Of a stretch of 64,000 bases of DNA, positions 23,317 to 46,301 are shown in pieces. The translations under genes were made by a program, and so were the position numbers. This DNA is from a virus. Lineage: Duplodnaviria > Caudoviricetes. How positions within the stretch are numbered: the stretch's first letter is position 1; every line of letters begins with the position of its first letter. Under the pieces are notes generated by a model that was not told the origin of the DNA, did not search any database, and saw only the letters and a program-made list of their open reading frames with translations. The stretch spans positions 339-64,338 of IMG/VR virus record IMGVR_UViG_3300006919_000052. One strand, written 5' to 3'.

Positions 23317-23724
23317 ATGGCATTTGGAGAAAGAAGAATATTTCCTGTTGATTTAAACACTAGAAGAGCTGTAGGTATAAACCTCCCTCTTAATGGAGAT
23401 GCTGTCTTTGATCCAAATTATACTACTAAAGAGGCATTAAAAAGCAATTTAATTAATTATTTATTAACTAACCCCGGAGAAAGAATAGCAAATCCACTTT
23501 TTGGTGCTGGTTTAAGACAGTTTATATTTACTCAAATTGCTAAAGACAATTTAGACTTTTTAAGGGAAGATATACAAGATAAAGTAAGTAGGGAATTTAG
23601 TGAAATACAATTAGATAATATATTAGTAACTGAAGAAATAGATGCTAATACTATAAAAGTACAAATTGATTATTCAGTCCCTAATACTAATATCAATGAT
23701 AATTTAATATTAAATTTTGCATAA
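23317..23724 (+). CDS. baseplate wedge protein, gp25/GPW family
   Basis: LKSNLINYLLTNPGERIANPLFGAGLRQFIF. Confidence 0.9.
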   Translation: MAFGERRIFPVDLNTRRAVGINLPLNGDAVFDPNYTTKEALKSNLINYLLTNPGERIANPLFGAGLRQFIFTQIAKDNLDFLREDIQDKVSREFSEIQLDNILVTEEIDANTIKVQIDYSVPNTNINDNLILNFA

Positions 23725-23726
23725 TA

Positions 23727-33200: not shown

Positions 33201-35448
33201 ATATAATAGTTTTAGAGCCCCAGTATCAACAGGGCTATCTATTCCTACTTTCTTTGGATCAGGTGTTATACCTTTTAATAAAGCACTTGATTGTCAACCT
33301 TTATTAAATAATTATAATGCCCAAAGAGATAATAGCTTTATAATGGAAGTTGATTATTCTAATGTTACAGGATCAATCTTACCATCAAATATAAATCAAA
33401 TATTAAATAATACAGCTGCTAAAGCATCTCTGCCAGATTCTAATTATACTTCACCTAAAGTAATAAACCCAAGATATGATGGTGTAAAATCTACGTGTGC
33501 TGAAATAAATGAATGGCATATAAAAGATACGGGTACTTATGGTAAATTACCTAATATAGAATTACGGGATGCATTTTTTGGATACTTTAATGATCTATCA
33601 GATGATTACCCAAATATAAATGGTTTAACTAGAGTTAATTTAAATTATTTAGTAGATGAACAAAGTAATGCTTTACCACCTTCTCTGCCTTCTATAGGTA
33701 TACCAACTCTAAAATCAGTATTCCCTATAGAGGAATTAACTTCTATAGCAGTACAATCTGGAAGTTCACAATATAAAGTATTAGGAGATAATGTTGAAGT
33801 AAAACAATTATTAACATATTATGAACCTATAATGTACTCTCAAAATTCAGGAGATAATTATACTAATAAAATTCAACTTTCGGGTTCAGGGTTTGTTTCT
33901 AGATATGATAATGATGATGAAAACTCTCAAATATTTCAACAGTTTAAAGCACAAGGAACAGCTTCTGTAGATACTAGCTCACCAGTCCAAAATGTAGATT
34001 ATTACATTGACCCCTCTCAGCAAGTAACAGGAAATCCACAAAATACAAATTCAACTAATCCATGGGTACAAGGAGGAAACAACTCAGCTTTATATCCATC
34101 TAGTGTTTGGGGTGGAAGTAATGGAAATGATTTACCAAATGCACAAGTTGTAAGTATGAAACATTCAATATTCACAACTTATGTTTCTGAAACAAGGGGA
34201 ACAAGAGATGAATTAAGATTTGAAGTGCATGCATATACAGGAAGTAATGATAATACTGAAATATCATTTAATTTAGAAGATATAGAATGTAATGTATATA
34301 CTGAAGATGGAAAAGTAACTAGTATTGGAAGTGCTCTAGATTATGGATGGTTTGATGTTAAAAATATTGTTGAATGGAGAAAAAGAAAAACAAGTCTTAA
34401 GTCATTAAGAGATGCTTATTCATCTAGAAATAGATGGAGAACTACAAGAATACCAATACCTACCGGAGGAATTAAAGTTACAGCTGATTGGGAAATGTTT
34501 GATACTCTTTTTGATAGAGGATTAATGAGAGAAAGAAAACCTAAAAATGGTTCAGGAGTAATAGCATTAGAGTGGATAATTACATTAAATACGGGTAATC
34601 ACACTATTAAAGTTGGAGATGATATTAGATTTAGAATAAATGGTTCATTTAAAAATGCTAGAGGTGGACATAGACAAGGTTACTTCTTCCCAGATTCTGG
34701 AGATTTCTTACAAACACCAACAAGAATTCAAGGAATGGGTGTTTATGATCATTTATTACAAGAATCTAATGTAGCTGCAGCACCTTTTTGGATGGTAACT
34801 GGATCAGGAGAACCAACTTATTTAGTTATGTCCTCCTCAAATATGAATGAAGCATATGGTCAAGAATTTAAACAAGGAGATTTAGAATATTTCCCTGGTC
34901 CATCAGAATACTTTCCTGGAGGAATAGAACCTGCTAACACATCATTTGATACAATAAAATATTCACTACAATTATTTACAAACGATCAAATTAGATTTTC
35001 TAATAATGAAAACTTTACATACGATATTATTAGAGTATGGGGACCAGATGAAAATATAGAAGGTGACGGAATAGGAAAATTAAAAATTGAACTATCTGAA
35101 CCTATAGATGAATCAATAAATAAAGATTTCTTTTTAGTAAGAAGACCAATTGATAGTCCTAATTCACTATATTTAGATACTCCATTTCCTTATGAAACAT
35201 TAGGAAGTGCAAGTATAAGTACAGGAGTAGTAGAATATTCAGGATCTAGATTTGCTTTATCAGGAAGTATAGATTCAGGTTCCGGTGGTAATTCAGATCT
35301 AAGTGGTTCTTACTCTGCTTCATTTAGTTCCTTGGAGTCGCAAATGACCCCTGGTATATTGTACCCGAATTATCCGACAGATTATTTAATTCAAAGTGCT
35401 TCTATAATAGTAAATGATTTAATTAGTAAAGGAGTAATACAATCTTAA
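27241..35448 (+). CDS. giant baseplate/tail protein (2735 aa; wedge-like N-terminal region, beta-rich C-terminal domains)
   Basis: IYHNIPYLLKTKGTIAGLRALITSYG resembles the KGT motif of gp7/tail I-type wedge proteins; position in operon. Confidence 0.7.
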   Translation: MEEENIEIYQVDSTTFEKETYSVSDTSLMLQISQDTDFDLDRDYIEFYVYDENKKLLYPEDVIPLNSFNVRQGDILLDPENDLKSFGFDIGRYYISYNFYRKRVSSDPILKYYIKEISSDRTEIRLASNTISNEAISTGAETFTAYRNLASYFVDFALNFGGNNTIIANNLQLDTSNAGDTSLLIKLYEPLPAQYTTKSQCWIVEKLSKSQSYEVFFPFIPVSNDSSIFLSGPNLNLNIIGESAEAGQLYSYNTLLNSDVTSSINQLKNLLDSKEININVDYENYGEFVNFSSAQTRLENFYYKVGLIESASIQLSLNLGNIAGSTTTTAAYSSSKASLTSIIDNTINNFDGYEYFLYFNSGSKYSYPKSNTEPPFTLYSTGSTEVLQWIGSADSTSTYYGGQALSASNYDQDNQDWLYWSIPEYLRNDSDNVRYELYLDMIGQHFDNVWLYTKDITEKYNTDNRINFGVSKDLVAQAIRDFGIKLYSNNFNTDDLFTAFLGLTPSGSLFPFPNITGSIGGQVNTPTGYEYIDTKISSSNDVIPLDDTNKRLYKRIYHNIPYLLKTKGTIAGLRALITSYGIPDTMLRINEFGGKDKNENTNWDFSQNVFNYAFNTGPNSLNTLTSSFNINANFGSEVPSVKSVGTVQLRFKPNTIPEIVSDNTPNPKIRYSQSLWAIDNDLTNPFDNPSAAVVLEYTGSGFITGSYSGSSPSEYDTWGTLKFFPDVLYNPSVSCSVYAPFFNNDWWSFQLGYTGEGPAGASSTVTASLYVGNEINGELGFNLSSSVTATDGRSWTRGDISTVNHKDLININLKSYLPFSGSYQEYRLWGPELSQSVFYDYVVNPYSDQGNNVNSTPNELAFRADLGTELNTGSRVSIHPRVTGSAVQITQSFNEIGNIGSSFLINQNNSDLLFVTNVEKIYENQVIAGIKNRVSDNIQLHSLNMPEPPSGSDADVVVLSPLESIQQETFESGSYSPKADYLEVAFSPANQINDDINAQLGYFNIGDYIGDPRQILSSSLSYPDLDTLSNAYFEKYIQNYNVNDFVRLIKFFDNSLFQMIKDFTPARTSLSSGIVIKQHILERNRQRQALVSQSFHDYSGSIKPFPRDYNTGSGDTGAYEYISGSSIYRFSGGPGGSTNRYNGLNTSPSQSAYGLSNKYFLTQSYSESIEGSVANTINNSGSFVGFGNTIIDSQHEFYDGEFSGSNIQATTQSLNPGCDPYLRVVDTPVNLYPLFFSLDEDRRNGTVSSTTFADRNNYPLEGYVWIGYQFNDTTNQTEVTGIKFPTTDLNGNFIRDYIDDSSTIEFFFQDGITTYYINGVDVFANGVYVTIDNTQGDFTTFFDPNGGSENWSLEVNGDYNTRNTVNTESSNDTQQGVFLNPTLLFQNQPIYYWNGTPVNDALGYFDTGSISSNSSVILGPNGNISSGSYTIPNSSNIPLFFSASIVISSSNTSFDGEGVVMGTYHSGNTHPGAAADQSVVLSSTVESAVFRPVPTQIDLNETVFQTSYNVLIPGDSGSGDPTFLPLINPGGHPKFRLASSSSLDFHFPSFQLDGTIPIESQNLLWTPYSGSTLDASNSSFVTATPGNGIAKLSSYSSSRDGTIGIYYNQMELYATLNPQNSGNIDEVTIRDVYIRPRIKFTADSNLHITSSWQYLASPPVTNAFWQTIPSKFGNADTGTNGTWYVNPSGYTTIASILQPADGVLYFRPVIKSPETEYEYTMTELDLDVRFDVSAQYDGGTIYDETHTFNNLISTTGQNGINNDMFPQSFVLGLLGTGDIQVHLKVTGSDSSGVGYERIITSSNPLTAVTMGPGVEFSFPDSPILDISHQTAGATSSITTEGDMYFIEYSASNYTPGFGGAGFSFFTADLSDGMEPNTKLFITSSFKDAVVGYDLTGSLYIAKGNELQNNSSFGSFILSNQFIIDNEAQNGVRFHVSGSYNYEYLNSDSFRLGVEVNKNFGSGFEILEYSMSIYPTQSDNARLLPGIGYNSFRAPVSTGLSIPTFFGSGVIPFNKALDCQPLLNNYNAQRDNSFIMEVDYSNVTGSILPSNINQILNNTAAKASLPDSNYTSPKVINPRYDGVKSTCAEINEWHIKDTGTYGKLPNIELRDAFFGYFNDLSDDYPNINGLTRVNLNYLVDEQSNALPPSLPSIGIPTLKSVFPIEELTSIAVQSGSSQYKVLGDNVEVKQLLTYYEPIMYSQNSGDNYTNKIQLSGSGFVSRYDNDDENSQIFQQFKAQGTASVDTSSPVQNVDYYIDPSQQVTGNPQNTNSTNPWVQGGNNSALYPSSVWGGSNGNDLPNAQVVSMKHSIFTTYVSETRGTRDELRFEVHAYTGSNDNTEISFNLEDIECNVYTEDGKVTSIGSALDYGWFDVKNIVEWRKRKTSLKSLRDAYSSRNRWRTTRIPIPTGGIKVTADWEMFDTLFDRGLMRERKPKNGSGVIALEWIITLNTGNHTIKVGDDIRFRINGSFKNARGGHRQGYFFPDSGDFLQTPTRIQGMGVYDHLLQESNVAAAPFWMVTGSGEPTYLVMSSSNMNEAYGQEFKQGDLEYFPGPSEYFPGGIEPANTSFDTIKYSLQLFTNDQIRFSNNENFTYDIIRVWGPDENIEGDGIGKLKIELSEPIDESINKDFFLVRRPIDSPNSLYLDTPFPYETLGSASISTGVVEYSGSRFALSGSIDSGSGGNSDLSGSYSASFSSLESQMTPGILYPNYPTDYLIQSASIIVNDLISKGVIQS

Positions 35449-35456
35449 TAAGATGC

Positions 35457-35482
35457 ATATTTATAAGCATATAATATTTATA
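35457..35482 (+). promoter_or_regulatory. two tandem class II motifs ATATTTATA
   Basis: 35457-35465 and 35474-35482 before the ATG at 35496. Confidence 0.65.
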
Positions 35483-35495
35483 TAAAAACACAACA

Positions 35496-36161
35496 ATGGG
35501 ATATTTAAACAATTCAGTAATAACAGTTGATGCTATTCTTACTAAAAAAGGTAGAGAGCTGTTAGCAAGAAACGATGGTTCATTTAGAATCACTCAATTT
35601 GCATTATCTGATGATGAAATAGATTATACACTTTATAATCCAACACATCCATCAGGTTCAGCATATTATGGTGAAGCAATTGATAACATGCCTCTATTAG
35701 AAGCATTTCCGGATGAACAACAAATAATGAAGTACAAATTAACTACTTTACCAAGAGGTACAGCTAGACTACCAGTACTTGATTTAGGATACGCTTCAAT
35801 AAACTTAAAACAAGGTGCTCAGTTAGCAATAACTCCACAAACTTTAAACTATTTAAGTCAAAATCAAACATTCGAAACTAGTGGTTATGTAGCTACTATT
35901 GGAGATGTTCGTTTATTTAGTAACTTTAATGGTATAGGAATTAATACGGATGTTGCAACTAATGCAAATTCAACAACTACAATTGGTACTAATGTATCCA
36001 AAACAGTTATTGGTACTCAAATTAATCTAACAGCAACAACCGTTAATACTTTATTTGGTACTCAAAATACTTTAAAAACTACTTTAACAGTAACAGGTTT
36101 AGATAGTGGAGCAAGAATAACAATCCCAGTAACAATAACACAAAACCAACTAACTTCATAA
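35496..36161 (+). CDS. structural protein (tail collar/fibre-attachment-like)
   Basis: DAILTKKGRELLA...ITQFALSDDEIDY. Confidence 0.65.
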   Translation: MGYLNNSVITVDAILTKKGRELLARNDGSFRITQFALSDDEIDYTLYNPTHPSGSAYYGEAIDNMPLLEAFPDEQQIMKYKLTTLPRGTARLPVLDLGYASINLKQGAQLAITPQTLNYLSQNQTFETSGYVATIGDVRLFSNFNGIGINTDVATNANSTTTIGTNVSKTVIGTQINLTATTVNTLFGTQNTLKTTLTVTGLDSGARITIPVTITQNQLTS

Positions 36162-36164
36162 GAT

Positions 36165-37220
36165 ATGGGCTTTAAAAGATTCGATCCACAAGATTTTGTA
36201 GTAAGTGCTGATACAGTTACTTCTACAGTATGGTCTAATAATAGTGTATCACTTAACACGTATGCAACCTCTTCAACACAAAGAGAAGGATCATCTGGTC
36301 CTTATTATTTAAATGTTTATCAAACAGCATCTGACCTACCAGAAGCAGCAGTACAATTTGGAATTGCTTATGCTAATGATACAGGAGGAGGAAGCTTATT
36401 GTTCGATCCCGCAGTAAGTGGTAAATCACCTTCAAGAACTTCATATGGTCAATATAGAACTTTAGTTTTAGAAGATGAAAATTCACAGTTTGTATTTGGT
36501 TCTAGTTTTTCAGGAAGCCAGTTTATAGCTTTAAGTATTGAAAGAGCAAGATATAAAGAAAAATTATTCCCAAGTTCATTTAATTTAGTATTATCAAGTA
36601 GTAATGTTAACTTAACACAGTTAAGTTTAACTGATAACTCAAAATTACAATCAATCCCCACTTATTATGGTGCTCAAAGAGCATATCAAGTAATTAGTGG
36701 ATCAGATGGTACTTCATATGATGGAGGAATTGGATACACAGAAGTATCTGGATCATATGGTTTATTCCTTCCAGACATTTCTACAGTATTATTAAATGTA
36801 GCTGCTTTATGTGATAAAACATCAATAGGTATTGGTTTAAATATTGTAAGTGCTTCAAATGATAATGACAATTCAGCTGGTCTTTCTAATGCAACGGAAT
36901 TATATAATCATATTTCAAGTTCAACAGGTGATACAGATGGAGAAATATTTAAATTAAATTCCCAAGAAACAATAACATCAGATTTTGTATTTGTTAGAGC
37001 AAGAAACGCAGAATTTAATTATTCAGAAAATCCAAGTTTTATATCAGGATCAACAGGAGAAGTAATTTATAGTTATTTTATTGATAATCCCCAGACATAT
37101 GCAACAACGGTTGGAATGTATAATGATAGTAATGAACTTTTAGCTGTAGCTAAATTATCAAAACCTTTACTAAAAGACTTTACAAAAGAGGCATTAGTTA
37201 GGGTTAAATTAGATTTTTAA
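36165..37220 (+). CDS. structural protein; intact paralog of the split gene downstream
   Basis: C-terminal TTVGMYNDSNELLAVAKLSKPL resembles tail collar/fibre-attachment proteins. Confidence 0.7.
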   Translation: MGFKRFDPQDFVVSADTVTSTVWSNNSVSLNTYATSSTQREGSSGPYYLNVYQTASDLPEAAVQFGIAYANDTGGGSLLFDPAVSGKSPSRTSYGQYRTLVLEDENSQFVFGSSFSGSQFIALSIERARYKEKLFPSSFNLVLSSSNVNLTQLSLTDNSKLQSIPTYYGAQRAYQVISGSDGTSYDGGIGYTEVSGSYGLFLPDISTVLLNVAALCDKTSIGIGLNIVSASNDNDNSAGLSNATELYNHISSSTGDTDGEIFKLNSQETITSDFVFVRARNAEFNYSENPSFISGSTGEVIYSYFIDNPQTYATTVGMYNDSNELLAVAKLSKPLLKDFTKEALVRVKLDF

Positions 37221-37226
37221 TAATGA

Positions 37227-37871
37227 ATGGCTACTTTCAAACAATTCAAAGCGCAAGATATAATAATATCTCCACTAGAGGTAAATAAGGGATTTAGGTT
37301 TGTTGCAAATTCTCCAACACCTACTATCTCACCAACACCTAGTGCTACACCTAGTGTTAGTGTTACCCCTAGTATTAGTATAACTCCTAGTACTAGTATT
37401 TCAGTAACACCTAGTATAACACCTAGTATAACACCTAGTATTAGTATAACACCAAGTGTAAGTATAAGTAGAACACCTAGTATAACACCTACTATATCTG
37501 TTAGTGGACCAGCTAATGTTACAGTTACACCATCCCCTAGTATTAGTATTACACCTAGTATTAGTATTACACCTAGTATTAGTATTACACCTACTAGAAG
37601 TGTGACACCTTCTACATCATCAACTCTATTTTCAGAAACAAATTATGGTTATGATACTTTAGATGCACAAGATGCTTGTGATGATCAAGGAACTAACCCA
37701 ACAATTTATTCAAATATAGAATGGACAAATACTTCAACTCCAATCTTATATTTTAATTCTAGTGGTGGTAAACGTGCTGCAGCAGGATGGTATGCAAGAA
37801 ATAATGTAGTTAAATATTATGGTACTACAGGTACTTGGGGAAGTAGTGGACAAATTTGTAGTCTTTCATAA
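37227..37871 (+). CDS. split structural protein part 1 with Ser/Thr/Pro stalk and two-Cys tip domain
   Basis: MATFKQFKAQDIIIS matches the 36165 N-terminus; about 105 aa of TPSISI repeats; DAC...ILY...AGWY...QIC. Confidence 0.8.
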   Translation: MATFKQFKAQDIIISPLEVNKGFRFVANSPTPTISPTPSATPSVSVTPSISITPSTSISVTPSITPSITPSISITPSVSISRTPSITPTISVSGPANVTVTPSPSISITPSISITPSISITPTRSVTPSTSSTLFSETNYGYDTLDAQDACDDQGTNPTIYSNIEWTNTSTPILYFNSSGGKRAAAGWYARNNVVKYYGTTGTWGSSGQICSLS

Positions 37872-37890
37872 TAATAAAAATATAAAATAA

Positions 37891-40800
37891 ATGGCGTTTT
37901 TTAACGATGATAATGTAGGAATAGATAGATACTTTGGGAAACCAGGGAACTACCTTAATTCCCAATCTTTATCAAGTACTGATTCTGTTTATTTTGTACC
38001 TGAAGTGTTAGTTTATGCTAATGCTTCTCAACTATATTATACAAATTATATATCAGGAAGTTATGGAGAGATTTCGGATGCAATTGTACCTACAGAAAAT
38101 CTAGATGGTACTCTTACTCCACCTTCAGGTTCAGATAATATATATAATACAACATATTACAATTATGAGGAAACAACATTAAATCCTCAAAAATCATTCC
38201 CAACATCCCAAAGTATTGGAGTAATAACTGTACCCTCAAAATTGTATGGAGATTATATTCAACCAGGAACAGTTAAAATAGAAAGCCCAAATAGTGGAAC
38301 AATAACAGATGATGGAAATGGTAGATTAAGAATTACGGGAAGTAGTGGAAATTCTCTTTTTGTTGGTAATGTAATTTACGAACATGGGATGATTATATTA
38401 GCTAACACTTTAACAGATGCTGATTATGATACATTATCAATTCAACCCTCACCTTCAATAACACCAACAACAACCCCTTCATCAACCCCTTCTATTAGTA
38501 TAACTAGAACTCCTAGTATTACACCAACAGTTACACCTAGTATAACAGTTAGTAAATCAGTTAGTGCTACTCCTAGTATGAGTATAAGTGCTACACCAAG
38601 TGTAAGTATAAGTTCAACACCTAGTATTAGTATAAGTACAACTCCTTCAGTATCTATTAGTAAATCAATAACACCAACTACTAGTAAAAGTGTATCAGTA
38701 ACTAGAACACCTAGTGTATCAATTAGTAAATCTGTAAGTGTAACACCTAGTATTACTATTAGTAAATCTATAACTAGAACTCCAACAAGTACAACTACAC
38801 CTTCTACAACACCTAGTATTAGTATAACACCTAGTATTAGTATAAGTGCTACTCCAAGTAATACTCCAAGTATTAGTATTTCTAAATCTATAAGTGCTAC
38901 TCCAAGTATTAGTATTTCTAAATCTATAAGTGCTACTCCAAGTACTAGTGTAACACCAAGTAATAGTGTAAGTAAATCTATAAGTGCAACTAGAACCCCT
39001 TCAGTAACACCTAGTATTACAATAAGTAAATCAGTAAGTGTTACACCAAGTATTAGTATAACATCTTCTACTACTCCAAGTCCTAGTATTACTATTAGTA
39101 AATCTATCACTAGAACACCTACTAGAACTCCAAGTATTAGTATAAGTAAAACACCTAGTATAACACCTAGTATTACTATAAGTAAAACACCTAGTATAAC
39201 AATTAGTAAGTCTATTAGTAATACCCCAAGTATTAGTATAACACCATCTACCTCAGTTACACCTAGTGTTAGTTTTAGTGTTACACCTAGTATTAGTATA
39301 AGTAAAACTCCAAGTATTTCTATTACACCTAGTATTTCTATTACACCTAGTATTAGTATAAGTGCTACACCAAGTATTACACCTAGTATTACTGTAAGTA
39401 AATCGATAAGTGCTACACCTAGTATTAGTATAACACCTAGTATTACAGTAAGTAAATCTATTTCTAAAACCCCAAGTGTAACAATAAGTAAATCAATAAG
39501 TGCTACCCCAAGTGTTAGTATAAGTAAGTCTATAACCCCAAGTATTAGTATTAGTAAGACACCTAGTATAACGGTTAGTAAATCAATTACTAGAACACCA
39601 AGTGTTACCCCTAGTAAATCAATATCAAGAACACCTAGTGTAACTAGAACACCTTCTATAACACCTAGTATTTCTATTTCACCAACACCTGAATCATCAG
39701 TTACACCTTCTGCTTCAATAACTAGAACACCTTCTATAACCCCAAGTATTAGTATAAGTAGAACACCTAGTATAACAGTTAGTAAATCTATAAGTAGAAC
39801 ACCTACTGTAACTATAACACCTAGTATAACGATAAGTAAATCAATAAGCGCTACACCTAGTGTAAGTATAAGTAAAACACCTAGTATAACGATTAGTAAA
39901 TCTATAAGTGCTACTCCTAGTATTAGTATAACACCAAGTATAACAGTTAGTCCTTCTAGAACTCCAAGTGTTACACCTAGTATTTCTATAAGTAGAACAC
40001 CTAGTGTAACTAGAACAAGTTCAGTAACACCTAGTATTACTATTAGTAAATCTATCACTAGAACACCTACTAGAACTCCAAGTATTAGTATAACAGCTTC
40101 TACTACACCATCACCTAGTATAACAATTAGTAAGTCAATTACAAGGACTCCTTCTAGAACACCTAGTATTACTATATCTAAATCAATTACTAGAACACCA
40201 AGTGTTACTGCAACAAGAACAGTAACACCTACTAGAACAGCAACAACCACTAGAACACCATCTACTACTAGAACACCTTCTATAACACCAACAAGGACTT
40301 TTACACCTACTAGAACACCTAGTAAATCAATCACCAGAACACCTTCTGTAACACCTAGTATTACTATTAGTAAGTCAATAACTAGAACACCATCTAAAAC
40401 ACCTAGTAAATCAATAACTAGAACACCATCTATAACAGCAACCACTACTAGAACACCATCTAGAACACCTAGTAAATCAATAACTAGAACGCCATCTAGA
40501 ACACCTAGTAAATCAATAACTAGAACGCCATCTAAAACACCTAGTATAACAATTAGTAAATCTATAAGTAGAACACCTACTGTAACTAGAACACCTAGTA
40601 TAACAATTAGTAAGTCTATTAGTAGAACACCAACACCTACACCATCTAGAAAATTATCTGATATAGATATTTTCATAGCTGTTTCTAGTTGGAGTGCAAC
40701 TAAAGATATGGATGCATTCTCATATAACTCTTGTAATGTAATTGGATTTGGAGCTAATCAATATTCTGTAGATTTAATCAAATCAGTAGCAAATGGTGCG

Positions 40801-41679
40801 GGTAATGCTTATCCAGAAGTAGGTGATGAAATAAGAGTATCGGGAAGTCTTGTAGCAGGTAGTGGATTCTTTGGGTATGTAGATACCTCAGGAACTTTAG
40901 GTGCAGGACCACAAAATGTTTATGTAGGAGTTAACGCAGCAGGAATTGTTTCTACTGGAATGACATTATGTACTAGTATTACACCAACACCTACTAGAAC
41001 GATTAGTATAACACCTTCAAAATCTATAACACCTAGTTATACACCTACTAAAACCCCATCTAGAACACCTTCTAGAACACCTAGTAGAACAGTAACACCT
41101 TCAAGTACACCAACTTTATTCCAATACCAATCAGTTAGTTCAGAAGGTTCAGGTGCAACGACAATTTCAACAGCTTGTGGTACATTTTCAAACCAAACTT
41201 CATTCTGGGTTGCTCGTCCATCATTATCTCAAATTCAAGTAGGAGATGAAATTTATAAAAACTCAGCAGGTACTGTAACATGGGTAGGAGGTTTATATTA
41301 TTATGGTATCCATGAAGTTGATGGATTTGGTGCTACAAGATATATGAGAGTAAACAATGCAGGTGAAGTTACTAGCACTGGTACTTGTACTTCTCCAACA
41401 CCAACACCAACAAGAACCCCTTCATCAACACCAGCTGGTTTAAATGCCTTATCATTAGGTTATAATGTTGATGATGGAGATGATGCTTGTATAGATCATA
41501 CTTTCAGTCCAACAACATTCTATTCAAATTGTTCATCATTTGGTAGTGGATGTACCATATACTTTAATTCAACAGGTACTAAACATGCTCCTGCAGGATA
41601 TTATGCAGATGGAACATCAGCTGGGTCTAAAACAGCAACAGGAACAATTACTTTAACACAATTATGTAATCAATTTTAG
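37891..41679 (+). CDS. split structural protein part 2 with long mucin-like stalk and three two-Cys tip domains
   Basis: IGVITVPSKLYGDYIQPG...ITDDG...GNVIYEHG core, then a very long S/T/P/I/K/R repeat. Confidence 0.85.
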   Translation: MAFFNDDNVGIDRYFGKPGNYLNSQSLSSTDSVYFVPEVLVYANASQLYYTNYISGSYGEISDAIVPTENLDGTLTPPSGSDNIYNTTYYNYEETTLNPQKSFPTSQSIGVITVPSKLYGDYIQPGTVKIESPNSGTITDDGNGRLRITGSSGNSLFVGNVIYEHGMIILANTLTDADYDTLSIQPSPSITPTTTPSSTPSISITRTPSITPTVTPSITVSKSVSATPSMSISATPSVSISSTPSISISTTPSVSISKSITPTTSKSVSVTRTPSVSISKSVSVTPSITISKSITRTPTSTTTPSTTPSISITPSISISATPSNTPSISISKSISATPSISISKSISATPSTSVTPSNSVSKSISATRTPSVTPSITISKSVSVTPSISITSSTTPSPSITISKSITRTPTRTPSISISKTPSITPSITISKTPSITISKSISNTPSISITPSTSVTPSVSFSVTPSISISKTPSISITPSISITPSISISATPSITPSITVSKSISATPSISITPSITVSKSISKTPSVTISKSISATPSVSISKSITPSISISKTPSITVSKSITRTPSVTPSKSISRTPSVTRTPSITPSISISPTPESSVTPSASITRTPSITPSISISRTPSITVSKSISRTPTVTITPSITISKSISATPSVSISKTPSITISKSISATPSISITPSITVSPSRTPSVTPSISISRTPSVTRTSSVTPSITISKSITRTPTRTPSISITASTTPSPSITISKSITRTPSRTPSITISKSITRTPSVTATRTVTPTRTATTTRTPSTTRTPSITPTRTFTPTRTPSKSITRTPSVTPSITISKSITRTPSKTPSKSITRTPSITATTTRTPSRTPSKSITRTPSRTPSKSITRTPSKTPSITISKSISRTPTVTRTPSITISKSISRTPTPTPSRKLSDIDIFIAVSSWSATKDMDAFSYNSCNVIGFGANQYSVDLIKSVANGAGNAYPEVGDEIRVSGSLVAGSGFFGYVDTSGTLGAGPQNVYVGVNAAGIVSTGMTLCTSITPTPTRTISITPSKSITPSYTPTKTPSRTPSRTPSRTVTPSSTPTLFQYQSVSSEGSGATTISTACGTFSNQTSFWVARPSLSQIQVGDEIYKNSAGTVTWVGGLYYYGIHEVDGFGATRYMRVNNAGEVTSTGTCTSPTPTPTRTPSSTPAGLNALSLGYNVDDGDDACIDHTFSPTTFYSNCSSFGSGCTIYFNSTGTKHAPAGYYADGTSAGSKTATGTITLTQLCNQF
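38446..40650 (+). repeat. degenerate coding tandem repeat (TPSISI / SKSITR / TPSITI units)
   Basis: recurring ACACCTAGTATTAGTATA, AGTAAATCWAT and ACTAGAACACC; in frame with synonymous variation. Confidence 0.95.
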
Positions 41680-41699
41680 ATAATTTTAAAAAATAAAAT

Positions 41700-42224
41700 A
41701 TGGGGTTATTAAATATAAATCATAATCAATTACATTATTATAACGGTAATAATATTAGTGTTTTACTTGATCACATGGGTAATGTAAAAATGCTTTATAC
41801 AAATACAGGAAAACATATAGATGATTGTCCTAGCTATATAAATAGTTTTGCCCGAAAATTAAAAACTTTAGAGTTTGATTCTATTTTAATAGGTGGAGCA
41901 GGTTTAGGAATATTAGCTCATTGGGTAGATACAAATACTTCTTGTTCTAAAATAGATGTAATTGAAAATGAAAATGAAGTAATTACTTGGCTAAGTGAAA
42001 GTAATCACTTATCTTCAGATATTAATATTATAGAGGGAGATGCCTTTAAATATAATATAACTTCAAGTTATGATTTAATATTAATGGATTTATGGTGGGA
42101 CACATCAGGTAATTATAATAATGATGAATTAGAATTAATAACAAAATATTCTAGTAGTTTAAATGAAAGTGGATCTTTATATTTTCCAATTAATAGTAAA
42201 GTATTAAACTTAGAATCAATATAA
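41700..42224 (+). CDS. class I SAM-dependent methyltransferase (spermidine synthase-like fold)
   Basis: ILIGGAGLG, IDVIE, IIEGDAF, YDLILMDLW. Confidence 0.8.
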   Translation: MGLLNINHNQLHYYNGNNISVLLDHMGNVKMLYTNTGKHIDDCPSYINSFARKLKTLEFDSILIGGAGLGILAHWVDTNTSCSKIDVIENENEVITWLSESNHLSSDINIIEGDAFKYNITSSYDLILMDLWWDTSGNYNNDELELITKYSSSLNESGSLYFPINSKVLNLESI

Positions 42225-42242
42225 TATTTATTATAAAATAAC

Positions 42243-42569
42243 ATGGGTACAAGAGATAGTTTTTTACAAGCTTTTATAGGTGAAATGGATGTGACTATGT
42301 CATTTTCTAGTTCCTATGAAATTTTTGAAACTCAATATAAATGTACAATAGGTTCTGAAGAATATAATTATACTAATAACCCAACTGTTCTATCAGGAAG
42401 TCAAGGGCAACCTTATGATTATGCAACTGGATCATTTTTCTCTCCTTATGTTACTTGTGTAGGACTATATGATGAAGCTTATAATTTATTAGCAGTAGGA
42501 AAATTAGCACAACCATTACCAACATCTCGTACAACAGATACTACAATTTTGGTTAATATAGATAGATAA
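42243..42569 (+). CDS. split structural protein part 3 (C-terminal domain)
   Basis: EYNYTNNPTVLSGS...YVTCVGLYDEAYNLLAVGKLAQPL aligns with the C-terminus of 36165; ATATTTATT upstream at 42224. Confidence 0.8.
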   Translation: MGTRDSFLQAFIGEMDVTMSFSSSYEIFETQYKCTIGSEEYNYTNNPTVLSGSQGQPYDYATGSFFSPYVTCVGLYDEAYNLLAVGKLAQPLPTSRTTDTTILVNIDR

Positions 42570-42574
42570 AATTA

Positions 42575-42604
42575 TTTGGTTATTAAGTAAAATGGTCGTA
42601 TATT
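42575..42604 (+). promoter_or_regulatory. class I promoter TTTGG-N17-CGTATATT for the GT60 operon
   Basis: TTTGG 42575-42579, CGTATATT 42597-42604. Confidence 0.8.
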
Positions 42605-42623
42605 ATAATAAAAGTTATATCCA

Positions 42624-44054
42624 ATGTCAAAATCTAAAGGGCTGGGTGATACAGTAGCCAAAATCACTAAATTTTTTAAAATAGATAAACTTGTTAAATC
42701 CATAGATGAAGATTGTGGGTGTGATAAAAGGCAAGAGTATTTAAATAAAATAGTACCTTATAAATCGTCTAAAAAAGACGAAAGTATTTTTGTACAAATA
42801 GCATCATATAGAGACCCCGAATTAAATAATACTTTAGAAGATTTATTTAAAAATGCTCAAAACCCAGATAATCTTAAAGTTTGTATTGCTTGGCAACATG
42901 ATGATAAAGATAAATGGGATCAATTAGATAAATATCAAAATGATAGTAGGGTTTTAATTTTAGATATTCCTTATAAAGAATCAAATGGTGTATGTTGGGC
43001 TAGAAATATGATTCAACAATATTATACTGATGAAACTTATACTTTACAATTAGATTCCCATCATAGATTTATTAAAAACTGGGATACAGAATTAATTAAA
43101 ATGTATAAAGGCCTTCAGAAAAAAGGACATAAAAAACCTTTAATAACTAGTTATTTACCCTCATACTTCCCAGAAAAAGATCCTAAAGATAGAACACAAG
43201 AGTGTTGGCAACAAGATTTTAATAGATTTACTCCTGAAGGTTATATATTTACTTTTCCTTCCCTAATTTCAGGGTGGGAAAATTTAGATTCTCCTGTTCC
43301 AGGAAGATTTTATTCTGCCCATTTTGCTTTTGCAGGAGGAGCATTTTGTAATGAGGTACAACATGATCCCGAAATGTATTTTCATGGTGAAGAACCTAGT
43401 ATAGCTGCTAGAGCTTTTACTTGGGGTTATGATATTTTTCACCCTCATAAAATTATAGCATGGCATTTTTATAGTAGAAACGGTTTTATAAAACATTGGG
43501 ATGATCATAGTAATTGGAACGACATTGATGAACATTCCCATTTAAGATATCGAACTTTACATGAAATGGACGGACATAAATGTACACCATGTGCTAAAAA
43601 TGCTTTGGGAAAATATTATTTTGGGGAAGTAAGAACCCTAGAAGAATATGAGCGTTATGCTGGATTAAAATTTGGAGATAGAACAGTAACCCAATTTACT
43701 TTAGATAGAAATGTACCTCCTAATCCACCAGATAAATATGAAGGTATGTTAAGACCTCATTTTAAACATTGTATTGATGTACATCAAGACCATTTTAATG
43801 AAGATGATTATGATTTTTGGGTAGTTTCTTTTGAAATGGAAGATGGTACAGTAGTAGATAGACAAGATGCAGATGCTAATGAATTAAAAAGATTATTAGA
43901 GCAAGCTAAAGGAGATGATGGTTGGGTTAGAATTTGGAGAGAATTTTTTGGACAAAAACCTGATAAATGGGTTATATGGCCTCATTCCGAATCTAAGGGA
44001 TATATTGAAAGATATGAAGTAAAATTAAATAAAGGAATAGAACCACCTCAATGA
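42624..44054 (+). CDS. GT60 family (polypeptide/hydroxyproline alpha-GlcNAc transferase-like) glycosyltransferase with N-terminal GLGD/CGC domain
   Basis: IFVQIASYRDPEL, GVCWAR, LQLDSHHRF..WD (DSH), YFHGEE..AARAFTWGYDIFHP, WHFYSR. Confidence 0.88.
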   Translation: MSKSKGLGDTVAKITKFFKIDKLVKSIDEDCGCDKRQEYLNKIVPYKSSKKDESIFVQIASYRDPELNNTLEDLFKNAQNPDNLKVCIAWQHDDKDKWDQLDKYQNDSRVLILDIPYKESNGVCWARNMIQQYYTDETYTLQLDSHHRFIKNWDTELIKMYKGLQKKGHKKPLITSYLPSYFPEKDPKDRTQECWQQDFNRFTPEGYIFTFPSLISGWENLDSPVPGRFYSAHFAFAGGAFCNEVQHDPEMYFHGEEPSIAARAFTWGYDIFHPHKIIAWHFYSRNGFIKHWDDHSNWNDIDEHSHLRYRTLHEMDGHKCTPCAKNALGKYYFGEVRTLEEYERYAGLKFGDRTVTQFTLDRNVPPNPPDKYEGMLRPHFKHCIDVHQDHFNEDDYDFWVVSFEMEDGTVVDRQDADANELKRLLEQAKGDDGWVRIWREFFGQKPDKWVIWPHSESKGYIERYEVKLNKGIEPPQ

Positions 44055-45316
44055 GAAAAATAATGCTACATCTCCCTGCTTATAGGGAACCCGAATTAAT
44101 ACCTACTATTAAAGATGCATTAGCCCAAGCTAAAAATCCTAAAAGAATACATTTTGGTATTTGTAGGCAATATAATCCTGAGGATGGTTTTGATAATTTA
44201 GATGAATTTAGGGATGATCCTAGATTTAAAATATCAGATATCCCTTATGAAGAAGCTAAAGGTTTACCCTATGCTAGAGCTATTATAAATGAAGAGTTAT
44301 TAGATGATGAAGATTTTGTTTTACAGTTAGATGCTCATCATAGATTTGCAAAAGACTGGGATGCAACTTTAATTAAATGGTATGATAAATTAAAAAAGAA
44401 GGGTAAAAATCCTTTAATATGTGGTTATTTACCATATTATAACCCATTTAATGACCCAGCAGAAAGAGTAAATGAGCCATGGTTTAGTGAAGCAGCATGT
44501 TTTTATCCACATGGTACTATATTTATTCGCCCTACAGGATATCATCATGTAGACTATAAAACATTAAAAGAACCAGTACCAGCTAGATTTATTTCAGGTC
44601 ATTTTTGTTTTGGTCCAAATAAATGGGCTAAAACAGTAAAACATGATCCTGAAATATATTTTTCAGGAGAAGAATTAAATTTATCGGTTAGAAGTTTTAC
44701 ACATGGTTATGATTTATTCCACCCCCACCAAGTAGTTGTTTGGCATGCTACAATGAGAGAAGAAAGGGATAATATGTTAATATGGGATGATCAATCTAAG
44801 CGTGGGGATGATATGTGGTGGAGACAACAAGATATAGGGAGAGCTAGAATTAGACAACTTATAGGAGTTGAAGATAATGGTTATGATTTAGGTGAATATG
44901 GTTTAGGTAATGTTCGTACTATAAGAGATTATGAAAAATATGCTGGTATTCATTTTAAGAAAAAATCATTCCAAAAATATACTAGAGACAATAAATTCCC
45001 TCCAAACCCTATAATTGAAGATGAACAAGAATGGGAGGATAGTTTTATGTTTTCATTTTATCATTTAGTAAATGTTACTCCTGACCAACTACCAGCTAAA
45101 GATTATAATTTTATTTTAATAGCATATGATGATAAAGATGGAAATAGTATTGATAGTGAATATATAGATGATTATAGATTAAAACAATTTTTAGAAGAAG
45201 GTAAACCTATCCATTATGAAAAAATGTTTATGACAGATGAAAATCCTGCAAGGGTAGTATATTGGGGACACAGTGAAAAAAGAGGATGGGTTGAAAGAAT
45301 AGAATCAAAAATCTAA
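44051..45316 (+). CDS. second GT60 family glycosyltransferase
   Basis: LPAYREPEL, GLPYAR, LQLDAHHRF..WD, YFSGEE..SVRSFTHGYDLFHP; paralog of the upstream gene. Confidence 0.85.
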   Translation: MRKIMLHLPAYREPELIPTIKDALAQAKNPKRIHFGICRQYNPEDGFDNLDEFRDDPRFKISDIPYEEAKGLPYARAIINEELLDDEDFVLQLDAHHRFAKDWDATLIKWYDKLKKKGKNPLICGYLPYYNPFNDPAERVNEPWFSEAACFYPHGTIFIRPTGYHHVDYKTLKEPVPARFISGHFCFGPNKWAKTVKHDPEIYFSGEELNLSVRSFTHGYDLFHPHQVVVWHATMREERDNMLIWDDQSKRGDDMWWRQQDIGRARIRQLIGVEDNGYDLGEYGLGNVRTIRDYEKYAGIHFKKKSFQKYTRDNKFPPNPIIEDEQEWEDSFMFSFYHLVNVTPDQLPAKDYNFILIAYDDKDGNSIDSEYIDDYRLKQFLEEGKPIHYEKMFMTDENPARVVYWGHSEKRGWVERIESKI

Positions 45317-46299
45317 TGATAGTATACCATTTAGAAACTCCATGTCATTGGCTTGGGTGGCATGACGTATTTAATCAATTATCTAACCATATAAACAATA
45401 AGTATAATGCTACTTATTACCATAAACTTCCAATTATATCAAAAGATAATGATCATCTTTATATAGATAAATTTAATTTAAAACAAAAAGATTGTGAATT
45501 AATAATTTATGATGAAAAAAATGATATTTTAAAAGCTGTTACTTGGTGTGAGGTCCATAACTGTGGAGGTGAAGAAGAATGTTTATTAGATCTATTTAAA
45601 AAAAGAAACAATAAAAATGATATTCTTTTAATAACCCATCAAAGTACATGGTTTTATGAATTAGAAGAACAAAAAACATATTTAAAAGGGAATTGGAATT
45701 TTACAATTGAATCAACCCCCTTTTATACTTTTTCAAGTCCTATAGATCATGATGTTTTTTATGAAAAAAGAAAATTAATAAATTATAAAGATTTAAATGA
45801 TCAGATGTTTTGGTTATCTACTACTCGTAGAGAAGACCCATTTAAATTAAGAGAATTAGGTTTATGTAATAAAGGAGAAAAATCTTTAAAAATTGAAGAA
45901 TATTTAGATTTATCAATTAATTACAAAGTAGGATTATCCATTTCAAGCTTAGCTGAAATATGTTATAGAGACATAGAATACATGGCTACAGGAATCCCAA
46001 TGTTAAGATTAGAATATAAAGGAGAATATACACCTCAATTAATACCTAATTACCATTATATAGCAATTAACAGAGAAAAATATAACTTCCCAGGATCTAA
46101 AAATAACAAAAATTGGACTACTAATGACGATAGGATAGGAGGAGATATTTATGTACAAGCATATAAAGAAAGATTTTTAGAAGTAAAAGATGATTTTGAG
46201 TTTTTAAATCAAATATCTATAAATGCTAGAAAATATTATGAGGATTATTGTAAACCCTCTACTAGAGTTAATTATTTATTATCACGTTTAAAATTATAG
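45316..46299 (+). CDS. putative glycosyltransferase (GT-B-like C-terminus)
   Basis: YKVGLSI...EICYRDIEYMATGIP...LIPNYHYI...QISINARKYYE. Confidence 0.6.
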   Translation: MIVYHLETPCHWLGWHDVFNQLSNHINNKYNATYYHKLPIISKDNDHLYIDKFNLKQKDCELIIYDEKNDILKAVTWCEVHNCGGEEECLLDLFKKRNNKNDILLITHQSTWFYELEEQKTYLKGNWNFTIESTPFYTFSSPIDHDVFYEKRKLINYKDLNDQMFWLSTTRREDPFKLRELGLCNKGEKSLKIEEYLDLSINYKVGLSISSLAEICYRDIEYMATGIPMLRLEYKGEYTPQLIPNYHYIAINREKYNFPGSKNNKNWTTNDDRIGGDIYVQAYKERFLEVKDDFEFLNQISINARKYYEDYCKPSTRVNYLLSRLKL

Positions 46300-46301
46300 A
46301 T

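What the first reader, a model, noticed from the sequence alone, without database searches (positions are those of the whole stretch)
36165..42569. A structural paralog split into three genes, with stalks and tip domains added at the new C-termini
The intact 36165 protein aligns by eye, in order, to three separate downstream ORFs: MGFKRFDPQDFVVS with MATFKQFKAQDIIIS (37227); ALSIERARYKEKLFPSSFNL..LTDN and YGLFLPDISTVLL with VITVPSKLYGDYIQPGTVKI..ITDD and VGNVIYEHGMIIL (37891); EFNYSENPSFISGS..TTVGMYNDSNELLAVAKLSKPL with EYNYTNNPTVLSGS..TCVGLYDEAYNLLAVGKLAQPL (42243). Each of the first two breaks is followed by a stalk, tip domain(s) and a stop; each later fragment has its own ATG and A-rich leader. 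Inference: gene fission in surface loops created free C-termini for display, and the fold reassembles from three chains, the first contributing only about 27 residues.
Basis: partly seen in the sequence, partly recalled or inferred. Interest (0 to 1): 0.85.

Follow-up and report, generated by a model that had tools for sequence, protein, structure and literature searches.

The report
Phage baseplate gene split into three
A gene that most related phages keep as one baseplate-region protein is cut here into three still-conserved pieces, and the first two pieces carry long serine/threonine stalks ending in small fast-changing domains, probably sugar-coated fibres on the phage tail.

Summary
The window is a 64-kb fragment of an uncultured phage related to Flavobacterium phage immuto.

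- **Collinear pieces.** ORFs 37227, 37891 and 42243 map in order onto one contiguous protein ("B", about 295-370 aa). B follows paralog A (36165) as a single ORF in 67 of 80 related loci.
- **Independent support.** The same three-way split stands in a second assembly (L002) and in contigs of other sequencing runs. Two-way and three-way splits at the same sites occur in 8 further loci.
- **Selection.** The three core pieces evolve under the same purifying selection as intact A (dN/dS 0, 0.086 and 0.088 against 0.087). The added tip domains evolve fast (0.6-1.7).
- **Break sites.** Both lie where longer intact relatives carry inserted domains.
- **Stalks.** They are register-perfect (S/T)-X dipeptide repeats: 367 of 369 alternate positions over 737 aa.
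- **Neighbours.** Two GT60-type (PF11397) glycosyltransferase genes lie just downstream.

No intron, intein or homing-endonuclease signature was found. Reassembly of the three chains is inferred from conservation and is not shown.

The parts
35496..36161 (+). 221-aa conserved upstream neighbour, matching in size and position the 220-aa immuto gp107
   Evidence: equal position and size, directly upstream of A. No Pfam or PHROG hit. Sequence similarity to gp107 was not tested.
36165..37220 (+). Paralog A, intact (351 aa)
   Evidence: 48% identity to immuto gp106, E 2e-68. 98% identity to L002. dN/dS 0.087 against L002. Homologous to the B family at 99.6% probability.
37227..37313 (+). Piece 1 of split paralog B: N-terminal 29 residues (predicted long beta-strand)
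   Evidence: Matches residues 1-29 of intact B, E 1e-9. Keeps the invariant M1, K5, D11, P16 and K21. Corresponds to strand 12-26 of the model. 0 non-synonymous and 2 synonymous differences against L002. 19 of 26 residues identical to the independent split form L022.
37314..37610 (+). Stalk 1: 99-aa (S/T)-X dipeptide repeat
   Evidence: 47 of 49 alternate positions are S/T. Degenerate tandem DNA repeats. dN/dS 0.60. A 189-nt shorter variant occurs in run X16.
37611..37871 (+). Tip domain of piece 1 (86 aa, Cys-bounded), followed by TAA TAA TAA
   Evidence: 47% identical over 51 aa to the last domain of 37891, E 9e-10. 69% identity to L002. dN/dS 1.68 over 83 aligned codons. Stops read.
37891..38418 (+). 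Piece 2 of split B: middle core (residues 1-176)
   Evidence: Matches residues 35-199 of intact B, E 2e-51. Matches immuto gp105 residues 177-236, E 2e-7. 11 invariant columns kept. dN/dS 0.086.
38437..40647 (+). Stalk 2: 737-aa register-perfect (S/T)-X dipeptide repeat
   Evidence: 367 of 369 alternate positions are S/T, reached by 0 of 2000 shuffles; no register slip. The longest perfect run is 414 aa. Composition S 29%, T 23%, I 16%, P 14%.
40651..41679 (+). Three small beta-rich tip domains (residues 921-1035, 1069-1168, 1177-1262) separated by short P/S/T linkers, then a stop
   Evidence: AlphaFold2 model: mean pLDDT 78.4, domains mostly 82-97, linkers below 50. No PDB fold match. Identity to L002 of 78, 91 and 66%. 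dN/dS 0.62. 42 homologues, none with an informative name; 39 of 42 without a Pfam domain.
41700..42224 (+). Methyltransferase-like gene (174 aa) lying inside the split
   Evidence: phrog_15480 methyltransferase, E 3.9e-7. Weak Pfam MTS and RrnaAD hits below cut-off. Conserved in L002 with dN/dS 0.25. Also precedes the C-piece in the L004 contig.
42243..42569 (+). Piece 3 of split B: C-terminal 108 residues
   Evidence: Matches residues 224-329 of intact B, E 7e-50. Matches immuto gp105 residues 248-356, E 2e-21. 16 invariant columns kept. dN/dS 0.088. 1828 library hits, mostly at the C-terminus of 280-500-aa proteins.
42624..45316 (+). Two paralogous glycosyltransferase genes (476 and 421 aa) of Pfam family PF11397 'Glycosyltransferase (GlcNAc)'
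   Evidence: E 2.4e-68 and 1.5e-49, far above the cut-off of 21 bits. phrog_24687 glycosyltransferase. A homologue also follows the C-piece in the L004 contig.

Best explanation
In an ancestor of this phage lineage, the gene for baseplate-region paralog B was broken at two sites.
- Break 1 lies just after the N-terminal beta-strand.
- Break 2 lies in the variable loop after the VGNIIYxHG hairpin.

The three core pieces (29, about 176 and 108 residues) are still made as separate proteins and, by inference, come together without a covalent bond to rebuild the B protein in the tail.

Each break gave the upstream piece a free C-terminus. On it the phage hangs a long, extended (S/T)-X stalk ending in one or three small, fast-evolving, Cys-bounded beta domains. 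These probably bind something on or around the host cell.

The stalks are probably O-glycosylated in the host cytoplasm by the two GT60-type enzymes and other sugar-modifying genes next door. That would make them mucin-like or serine-rich-repeat-like fibres.

Shown: fission, collinearity, conservation of the cores, fast evolution of the tips, periodicity of the stalks, and glycosyltransferase neighbours.
Inferred: co-assembly, virion location, glycosylation and binding function.
For: - **Ancestral state.** B is one ORF in 67 of 80 loci found with A, and L021 is also continuous across break 2. It is one ORF in 72 of 77 further loci found with the C-piece, some on contigs of the first set. It is also one ORF in cultured phage immuto.
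- **Collinear map.** All three pieces map in order on intact B.
- **Same architecture elsewhere.** L002 shows it at 95-100% core identity. L022 shows another three-way split. L024, L025 and L027-L030 show two-way splits at break 2. L004 has two tandem N-pieces plus a separate C-piece, with the same order methyltransferase-like gene, C-piece, GT60 gene.
- **Independent contigs.** DNA run X3 covers 37020-37447 and 37564-38440 with 0 differences. DNA run X6 covers 37563-38344 with 1 difference. A contig of RNA-library run X16 bridges the junction between core 1 and its stalk (37283-37434, 0 differences). No joint linking piece 1 directly to piece 2 was listed.
- **Selection, window against L002.** dN/dS is 0.087 for A, 0 for piece 1 (only 2 synonymous changes), 0.086 for piece 2 and 0.088 for piece 3. 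It is 0.60 for stalk 1, 1.68 for tip 1 and 0.62 for the tips of piece 2. Piece 1 keeps 19 of 26 residues against both split L022 and intact L008, with pN 0.14-0.17 against pS 0.35-0.45.
- **Structure of intact B.** pLDDT 81.9 and pTM 0.72, one compact model. Its only stretch below pLDDT 50 (198-218) is break 2. Piece 1 is strand 12-26.
- **Insertion sites.** Of 40 family members of 390 aa or more, 9 carry their extra segment right after the N-terminal strand. 13 carry it after the hairpin, as at break 2, and 9 just before the hairpin. The BFVD fold search also finds longer relatives, two of them named as ConA-like lectin or laminin-G proteins.
- **Stalk periodicity.**
- **Glycosyltransferases.** PF11397 genes lie downstream. 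GT6 and GT2 genes lie between the pieces in L027 and L022.
- **Nothing to re-join the pieces.** No Rfam match in 35000-44000, no Pfam intein or endonuclease domain in the ORFs, and no terminator-like site between 36303 and 42765.
Against: - Co-assembly is not shown.
- Selection on piece 1 rests on few sites: 29 codons and 2 synonymous differences against L002.
- Break 1 lies in a confidently modelled turn, not a disordered loop.
- No solved structure resembles B or the tips. Virion location therefore rests only on gene order next to gp25-like and gp6-like baseplate genes and on tail-fibre annotations in immuto.
- No proteomic evidence was found. A search for 'Mel-JY01' found no paper, and the 5 listed of 7 papers holding 'vB_FspM_immuto' do not deal with virion proteins by title or abstract.
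- The glycosyltransferases could equally modify DNA, host polysaccharide or another protein.
- The tree of A needs 3 changes of split state and the tree of B needs 2. The group holding all split forms has only 85% SH-aLRT support and includes intact L026, so the history is unresolved.
- The L004 state (two complete N-pieces) allows a different origin for the three-way form: complementary loss in two tandem copies rather than a second break.
Confidence: 0.7

Rival explanations
1. This is ordinary fission between domains with no rebuilt fold. The N-part and the 108-aa C-part are independent modules that bind the baseplate (or A) separately. The 29-residue piece is just a short docking peptide for some other partner.
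For: - The C-terminal roughly 100 residues are by far the most conserved part and the part shared most clearly with A, as expected for an autonomous domain.
- Loci L027-L030 have an N-piece that ends cleanly at the break with no extension.
- L004 has two different N-pieces for one C-piece.
- Break 2 is a disordered loop.
Against: - The monomer model has pTM 0.72 for the whole chain, so its parts are placed confidently against each other.
- A 29-residue strand cannot fold alone, yet it stays as conserved as in intact proteins.
- All 9 split loci also hold the C-piece. It was seen in 8 loci as first fetched and, for L004, further along the contig.
Confidence: 0.2
2. The core pieces are decaying remnants of a gene destroyed by insertion of fibre and glycosylation cassettes. 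Only the stalk-and-tip parts matter now.
For: - L058 has a B truncated at 171 aa with no C-piece found.
- L125 has a frameshift at the break-1 site.
- So broken forms of this gene do occur.
Against: - The cores have dN/dS of 0-0.09, equal to intact A, while the cargo has 0.6-1.7.
- All invariant family residues are retained.
- The split state persists across lineages whose synonymous sites are saturated: dS 1.1-2.1 between the window and L022.
Confidence: 0.05
3. The split is not real at the protein level. It is a misassembly across repeats, or the pieces are re-joined by RNA splicing, protein splicing or ribosomal bypass.
For: The region is rich in repeats, where assemblers err.
Against: - Independent assemblies L002, L022 and L004 show the same kinds of junctions.
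- Contigs of other runs bridge the junctions with 0-1 differences.
- There is no Rfam intron and no intein domain.
- The intervening sequence is long open reading frame continuous with the upstream piece and conserved in L002.
- Piece 1's gene ends in three consecutive stop codons.
- Contigs cannot prove the absence of a rare spliced RNA.
Confidence: 0.02

Closest known systems
Split essential genes of T4-like phages (Aeh1 nrdA split by mobE, Aeromonas phage 25 gene 43A/43B, T4 topoisomerase genes 39/60)
   Same: A coding region that is contiguous in relatives is cut into separate polypeptides, which must reassemble. For nrdA and gene 43 the split products were shown to be active or to co-purify (passages read in PMC2988022).
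   Different: Those are enzymes split by a homing endonuclease gene or a short untranslated insert. Here a tail-module protein is split in three and no endonuclease domain was found in the gap. The upstream pieces have also gained large C-terminal cargo, so the break is put to use.
Domain insertions in loops of the same protein family (longer intact relatives)
   Same: Extra domains sit at or next to the same two places: 9 and 13 (+9 adjacent) of 40 long members. Two longer relatives in BFVD are named as ConA-like lectin or laminin-G proteins.
   Different: In those proteins the insert is tied in at both ends within one chain. Here the chain is cut, so the cargo has a free end and can be hundreds of residues of stalk.
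Serine-rich repeat glycoprotein adhesins of Gram-positive bacteria
   Same: A long serine-rich stalk is glycosylated inside the cell on Ser/Thr by dedicated enzymes and carries a binding region (abstracts of PMC6973325 and PMC5578698). That these and the staphylococcal Ser-Asp repeat proteins are dipeptide-periodic is recalled, not taken from a call.
   Different: - Host and context differ: a phage tail rather than a cell wall.
- No accessory Sec system is involved.
- The neighbouring enzymes are PF11397/GT60-type, not GtfA/GtfB.
- Glycosylation here is untested.
GT60 polypeptide alpha-GlcNAc transferases (Skp1 hydroxyproline Gnt1; Trypanosoma cruzi mucin Thr-GlcNAc transferase)
   Same: The two genes after the C-piece match Pfam PF11397 strongly. 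GT60 holds enzymes that put GlcNAc directly on protein, including on threonine of mucins (passage in PMC6939170; abstract of PMC3769586). That PF11397 corresponds to CAZy GT60 is recalled.
   Different: Those are eukaryotic enzymes with known acceptors. The acceptor of the phage enzymes is unknown.
Donor-strand complementation in chaperone-usher pili, and split-GFP strand tags (recalled)
   Same: In those systems a short beta-strand supplied by another chain completes a fold and thereby docks its carrier. This is the role proposed for the 29-residue piece.
   Different: No evidence yet that piece 1 inserts into a sheet of pieces 2 or 3. The resemblance is functional only.
Modular anchoring of tail fibres and tailspikes by short N-terminal adaptor domains, and glycosylated mycobacteriophage virions (both recalled; only lists papers that cite the latter)
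   Same: Interchangeable receptor-binding cargo on a conserved N-terminal anchor, and phage-encoded glycosyltransferases decorating virion proteins.
   Different: Here the anchors are fragments of one ancestral fold rather than autonomous adaptor domains. Neither anchoring nor glycosylation has been tested.

Membership tests
A/B paralog family of the baseplate/fibre module of immuto-like phages (no Pfam or PHROG family) | Collinear sequence match over the whole length of intact members | tested here: met
   The three pieces map to residues 1-29, 35-199 and 224-329 of the L008 B protein. A and B profiles align at 99.6% probability.
A/B paralog family of the baseplate/fibre module of immuto-like phages (no Pfam or PHROG family) | Family-invariant residues kept | tested here: met
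   5, 11 and 16 invariant columns include the window's pieces. One nearly invariant Gly (position 27) is Ala in the window.
A/B paralog family of the baseplate/fibre module of immuto-like phages (no Pfam or PHROG family) | Position directly after paralog A, downstream of gp25-like and gp6-like baseplate genes | tested here: met
A/B paralog family of the baseplate/fibre module of immuto-like phages (no Pfam or PHROG family) | Being a virion (baseplate) component | not testable with these tools
   There is no proteomic or structural record. Foldseek against PDB and a profile against PDB sequences found nothing.
Genes split by a homing endonuclease | An endonuclease ORF (GIY-YIG, HNH, LAGLIDADG) in the gap | tested here: not met
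   Pfam finds none in 37227, 37891 or 41700. The gaps hold cargo, a methyltransferase-like gene or glycosyltransferases.
Group I/II intron or intein interruption | Intron RNA structure, or a Hint/intein domain in frame | tested here: not met
   No Rfam match at E up to 1 in 35000-44000. No Pfam domain of that kind.
Serine-rich-repeat-like glycoprotein stalk | Long Ser/Thr dipeptide-periodic repeat | tested here: met
   367 of 369 alternate positions over 737 aa, and 47 of 49 in the shorter stalk.
Serine-rich-repeat-like glycoprotein stalk | O-glycosylation of the repeat by dedicated enzymes | not testable with these tools
   Only adjacency of PF11397 genes and of GT6 and GT2 genes in relatives.
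Serine-rich-repeat-like glycoprotein stalk | GtfA/GtfB pair and accessory Sec export | not tested
   No dedicated search was made for GtfA/GtfB or accessory Sec genes. The Pfam scan of ten neighbouring window ORFs named other families only. As a membership test this stays open; the resemblance is to how it works.
PF11397 / GT60 glycosyltransferases (for the two downstream genes) | Score above Pfam's curated cut-off | tested here: met
   231.6 and 169.8 bits against a cut-off of 21.
T4 gp10/gp11/gp12-type peripheral baseplate proteins | Shared fold with solved T4 proteins | tested here: inconclusive
   No PDB match at E up to 0.001. The only hint is a BFVD row for a 'baseplate wedge subunit' of phage ACP17, E 3e-3 over 136 columns. 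The more sensitive aligners were not available.

The most novel reading that the evidence does not exclude
The phage uses a natural split-protein docking system. A baseplate protein has been cut so that a 29-residue strand tag and a 176-residue half each plug into the remaining 108-residue piece and so fasten interchangeable fibres to the tail. The fibres are hundreds of residues long and sugar-coated. On this reading the 29-residue tag alone is enough to mount any cargo on the virion, and lineages swap cargo and glycosyltransferase cassettes at these two sockets.
Probability: 0.35. Interest if true: 0.85.

Novelty: new variant of a known kind. Interest (0 to 1): 0.68.

Why it matters
- **Protein evolution.** If the pieces do reassemble, this is a clear natural case of a protein being cut inside its fold so that loops that could only hold tied-in inserts become free ends for very long cargo. 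The intact, loop-inserted, two-piece and three-piece states are all still present in related phages, so the steps can be compared.
- **Phage display.** It would give a ready-made short tag for mounting proteins on a phage tail.
- **Virion glycosylation.** Register-perfect Ser/Thr stalks beside protein-type GlcNAc transferases point to mucin-like glycosylated fibres on aquatic phages. Little is known about virion glycosylation outside mycobacteriophages and giant viruses.
- **Annotation.** Short ORFs such as the 108-aa piece, and the first 29 codons of a "repeat protein", would otherwise be taken for unrelated hypothetical genes.

Tried and rejected
- **Complex prediction.** Run on the three core pieces with alignments, the 35-residue N-piece as partner. 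Scores were 0.33, 0.03 and 0.25 against a mark of 0.32. The verdict was no answer, so it counts neither for nor against binding.
- **Fold searches.**
  - Intact-B model against PDB by Foldseek: nothing at E up to 0.001.
  - Tip-region model against PDB: nothing.
  - The two VIA-align libraries were not on the machine.
- **Sequence and family searches.**
  - B profile against PDB sequences: 0 hits.
  - Pfam on A and the pieces: nothing significant.
  - PHROGs on A and the pieces: only weak or unnamed families.
  - PHROGs on intact B and longer relatives: nothing useful.
  - ESM Atlas on the tip domains: only unnamed viral clusters below 0.9.
  - Homologue search of the tip region: 42 proteins, none with an informative name; 39 of 42 without a Pfam domain.
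- **Other checks.**
  - Megablast of the region against cultured phages: no match.
  - Promoter-like sites are no more frequent than in shuffles.
  - A homing endonuclease as the cause of the split was considered. The 149-aa gene next to the C-piece in the two-way-split loci turned out to be a conserved syntenic neighbour of B in most loci, intact ones included, so it does not mark the split.
- **Literature.** Searches for earlier descriptions found none: 'gene fission/split gene/tail fiber/bacteriophage', 'GT60/polypeptide/phage/O-glycosylation', 'vB_FspM_immuto' and 'Mel-JY01'. Supplementary files of papers were not consulted.
- **Reads.** Parts of the laid stretch without cover in some runs are not evidence.
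Full report
**What the window is.** The window is nearly all of a 64,338-base viral record judged about 39% complete. It has about 30% G+C, and almost all of its ORFs of 100 aa or more lie on the + strand.

The finding lies in a tail gene block:
- a gp25-like gene (PF04965, E 6e-8) and a gp6-like wedge gene (phrog_219) at 23317-25568;
- a 2735-aa protein (27241-35448);
- a 221-aa protein;
- the 351-aa protein "A" (36165);
- the three ORFs of the finding.

The nearest cultured relative is Flavobacterium phage vB_FspM_immuto (A is 48% identical, E 2e-68). There the same block reads baseplate genes, a 1265-aa protein, gp107 (220 aa), gp106 (= A), gp105 (357 aa, "B"), then tail fibre and tailspike genes.

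**The observation.**
- The C-terminal piece matches well (E 6e-13).
- The N-terminal 12 residues match weakly (E 0.045).
- The middle is not found by BLASTP.
- A profile-profile comparison of 71 A sequences with 103 B sequences gives 99.6% probability (E 1.1e-23) over A 92-350.

The better comparator is intact B.
- Immuto gp105 residues 177-236 match 37891 residues 120-174 (E 2e-7). Residues 248-356 match 42243 (E 2e-21).
- On the closer intact B of metagenomic locus L008 (329 aa), the three pieces cover 1-29, 35-199 and 224-329. Identities are 66, 52 and 70%, with E 1e-9, 2e-51 and 7e-50.

The pieces are therefore collinear parts of one gene.

**How common the split is.** A scan of IMG/VR with A gave 246 matching stretches, of which 80 loci were kept. 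Their state is as follows:
- In 67, B is a single ORF of 295-484 aa directly after A.
- L021 is cut by the contig end but is continuous across break 2.
- L023 and L054 are cut too early to tell.
- L058 has a 171-aa truncated B with no C-piece found.
- Nine are split.

The nine split loci are:
- L002: three-way, like the window, with A 98% identical.
- L022: three-way, with a 644-aa protein starting with the N-terminal strand, a bare 167-aa middle piece and a 109-aa C-piece.
- L024 and L025: two-way, with N-parts of 1050 and 635 aa carrying cargo.
- L027-L030: two-way, with a bare 191-aa N-part.
- L004: two tandem N-parts of 877 and more than 2444 aa.

Further along the L004 contig lies a 112-aa C-piece. 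It is preceded by a homologue of the window's methyltransferase-like gene and followed by a PF11397-type gene, the same order as in the window.

A second scan with the C-piece gave 77 further loci, several on contigs of the first set. 72 are intact and one is the L002 contig again. In three the match lies at a contig end. L125 has a frameshift at the break-1 site.

A library-wide search with the C-piece found 1828 proteins at E up to 0.001. Among the best 150, the match is nearly always the C-terminus of a 280-500-aa protein.

**Not an artefact, not re-joined.**
- L002, L022 and L004 are separate assemblies.
- 20 of the 24 listed runs hold the stretch or a part of it, and 16 hold half or more of its sampled words. 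The holders come from 17 studies.
- DNA run X3 has contigs covering 37020-37447 and 37564-38440 with no differences. DNA run X6 covers 37563-38344 with one difference.
- A contig of RNA-library run X16 bridges the junction between core 1 and its stalk.
- The only joints listed lie within the stalk repeats. They include a 189-nt in-frame length variant.
- Contigs show presence only. They show neither transcription nor the absence of rare forms.
- Rfam finds nothing in 35000-44000, and Pfam finds no intein or endonuclease domain.
- Each later piece has its own ATG after an A-rich leader, and 37227 ends in TAA TAA TAA.

**Are the pieces still in use?** Window against L002:

| Part | dN/dS |
|---|---|
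| Intact A | 0.087 |
| Piece 1 | 0 (no non-synonymous, 2 synonymous changes) |
| Piece 2 | 0.086 |
| Piece 3 | 0.088 |
| Methyltransferase-like gene | 0.25 |
| Stalk 1 | 0.60 |
| Tip 1 | 1.68 |
| Tip region of piece 2 | 0.62 |

- Within the other split clade the pieces give 0.16-0.34.
- Piece 1 keeps 19 of 26 residues against split L022 and against intact L008, with pN well below pS.
- The pieces hold all invariant columns of the family alignments.

So the cores are maintained like an intact gene, and the cargo is the fast-changing part.

**Where the breaks fall.** AlphaFold2 on intact L008 B with 103 sequences gives pLDDT 81.9 and pTM 0.72.
- Piece 1 is a 15-residue strand (12-26).
- Break 1 follows it in a well-modelled turn.
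- Break 2 is the only stretch below pLDDT 50 (198-218).

Forty family members of 390 aa or more were compared with the B profile. I sorted the extra segments by the profile coordinates printed in that call, whose edges are fuzzy:
- right after the N-terminal strand in 9;
- after the VGNIIYxHG hairpin, as at break 2, in 13;
- just before that hairpin in 9;
- elsewhere in 9.

Examples are L043 (484 aa) at site 1, and L070 and L077 (about 450 aa) beside site 2.

BFVD also holds longer relatives, two of them named as ConA-like lectin or laminin-G proteins. Microcystis phage Mel-JY01 has five family members in tandem. Three of them are extended to 592-955 aa.

**The cargo.**
- Stalk 2 (residues 183-919 of 37891) is S 29%, T 23%, I 16% and P 14%.
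- 367 of 369 alternate positions are Ser or Thr, with no slip of register over 737 residues. No shuffle of 2000 reaches this.
- Stalk 1 has 47 of 49. Perfect runs of 244-408 residues occur in L002, L004 and L024.
- The end of 37891 folds into three small beta-rich domains separated by disordered linkers (pLDDT 78.4).
- The last of these domains is homologous to the tip of 37227 (E 9e-10).
- No solved fold or named family matches.

**Neighbours.**
- Directly after the C-piece come two PF11397 'Glycosyltransferase (GlcNAc)' genes (E 2.4e-68 and 1.5e-49), two unknown genes, a carbamoyltransferase and an HtrL/GT2-like gene.
- In the two-way-split loci, GT6, GT2 and other genes lie between the N- and C-pieces.
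- A conserved 149-161-aa gene marks the far edge of this variable island. It abuts B in many intact loci and abuts the C-piece in L022, L025 and L027-L030. It lies 8 kb beyond the C-piece in the window.
- So the variable fibre and sugar island, which normally follows B, sits inside B in the split lineages.

GT60, the CAZy family I recall as corresponding to PF11397, holds enzymes that put GlcNAc directly on protein. These include threonines of trypanosome mucins (passage in PMC6939170; abstract of PMC3769586).

**History.** On a tree of A the split state needs three changes. On a tree of B itself all split forms plus intact L026 form one group (SH-aLRT 85), which needs two changes.
- A single origin of break 2, with later exchange between phages and a possible re-fusion in L026, is not excluded. 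Neither are several origins.
- The three-way state appears in two places on the B tree (window with L002, and L022).
- The shared start of the middle piece (MAFFNDDNVGI in the window, MPFFTDSDVGI in L022) hints at common descent.
- The L004 state suggests another route: two tandem N-parts, each losing a different half.

**Conclusion.**
- The fission and the use of the new C-termini for stalk-and-tip cargo are read directly from the sequences and their relatives.
- Reassembly of the fold, virion location, glycosylation and binding are inferences that fit all the data but were not tested here.
- The nearest precedents are split enzymes of T4-like phages, which do reassemble (PMC2988022), and serine-rich repeat glycoproteins of bacteria (abstracts).

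Noticed in passing
window 38442-40676 (- strand): A 744-aa ORF made of L, V, I, G and D runs on the opposite strand of the stalk repeat. It is most likely a shadow frame of the repeat, not a gene.
   Followed up: no
window 27241-35448: A 2735-aa protein directly upstream. It sits where immuto has a 1265-aa protein, so it is about twice as long.
   Followed up: no
window 42624-50543: An 8-kb sugar-modification island: two PF11397 glycosyltransferases, two unknown genes, a carbamoyltransferase (PF16861 and PF02543) and an HtrL/GT2-like gene. It ends at a conserved 161-aa gene (50566-51051) that abuts B in many relatives.
   Followed up: partly
L125 1556-2495: B is interrupted by a frameshift at the same place as break 1. 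A 35-aa N-terminal ORF is followed by the rest of B in another frame with no nearby ATG. It could be a sequencing error, a dying gene or an early stage of a split.
   Followed up: partly
L058 2717-3232: B is truncated at 171 aa and no C-piece is seen. Its A protein is identical to that of L061, which has an intact B.
   Followed up: no
L004 13698 onward and L163 3-737 (same contig): The second N-part protein is open for more than 2444 aa at the end of L004. A P/S/T-rich ORF runs into L163 from its start. If continuous, it would be about 3600 aa; continuity was not checked.
   Followed up: partly
L082 (Microcystis phage Mel-JY01) 7793-16739: Five members of the A/B family lie in tandem (358, 353, 955, 719 and 592 aa). 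The longer ones have large extra N-terminal or internal segments.
   Followed up: partly
window 37351-37541: One contig of RNA-library run X16 skips 189 nt (63 codons) within stalk 1. This is a length variant of the repeat in another population.
   Followed up: no
L022 8183-9373: In this three-way-split locus, a separate 396-aa protein lies between the middle and C-pieces. It has poly-Thr linkers and repeated 'AGTQNAGLAFGG' units and matches phrog_27227 at E 2e-43.
   Followed up: no
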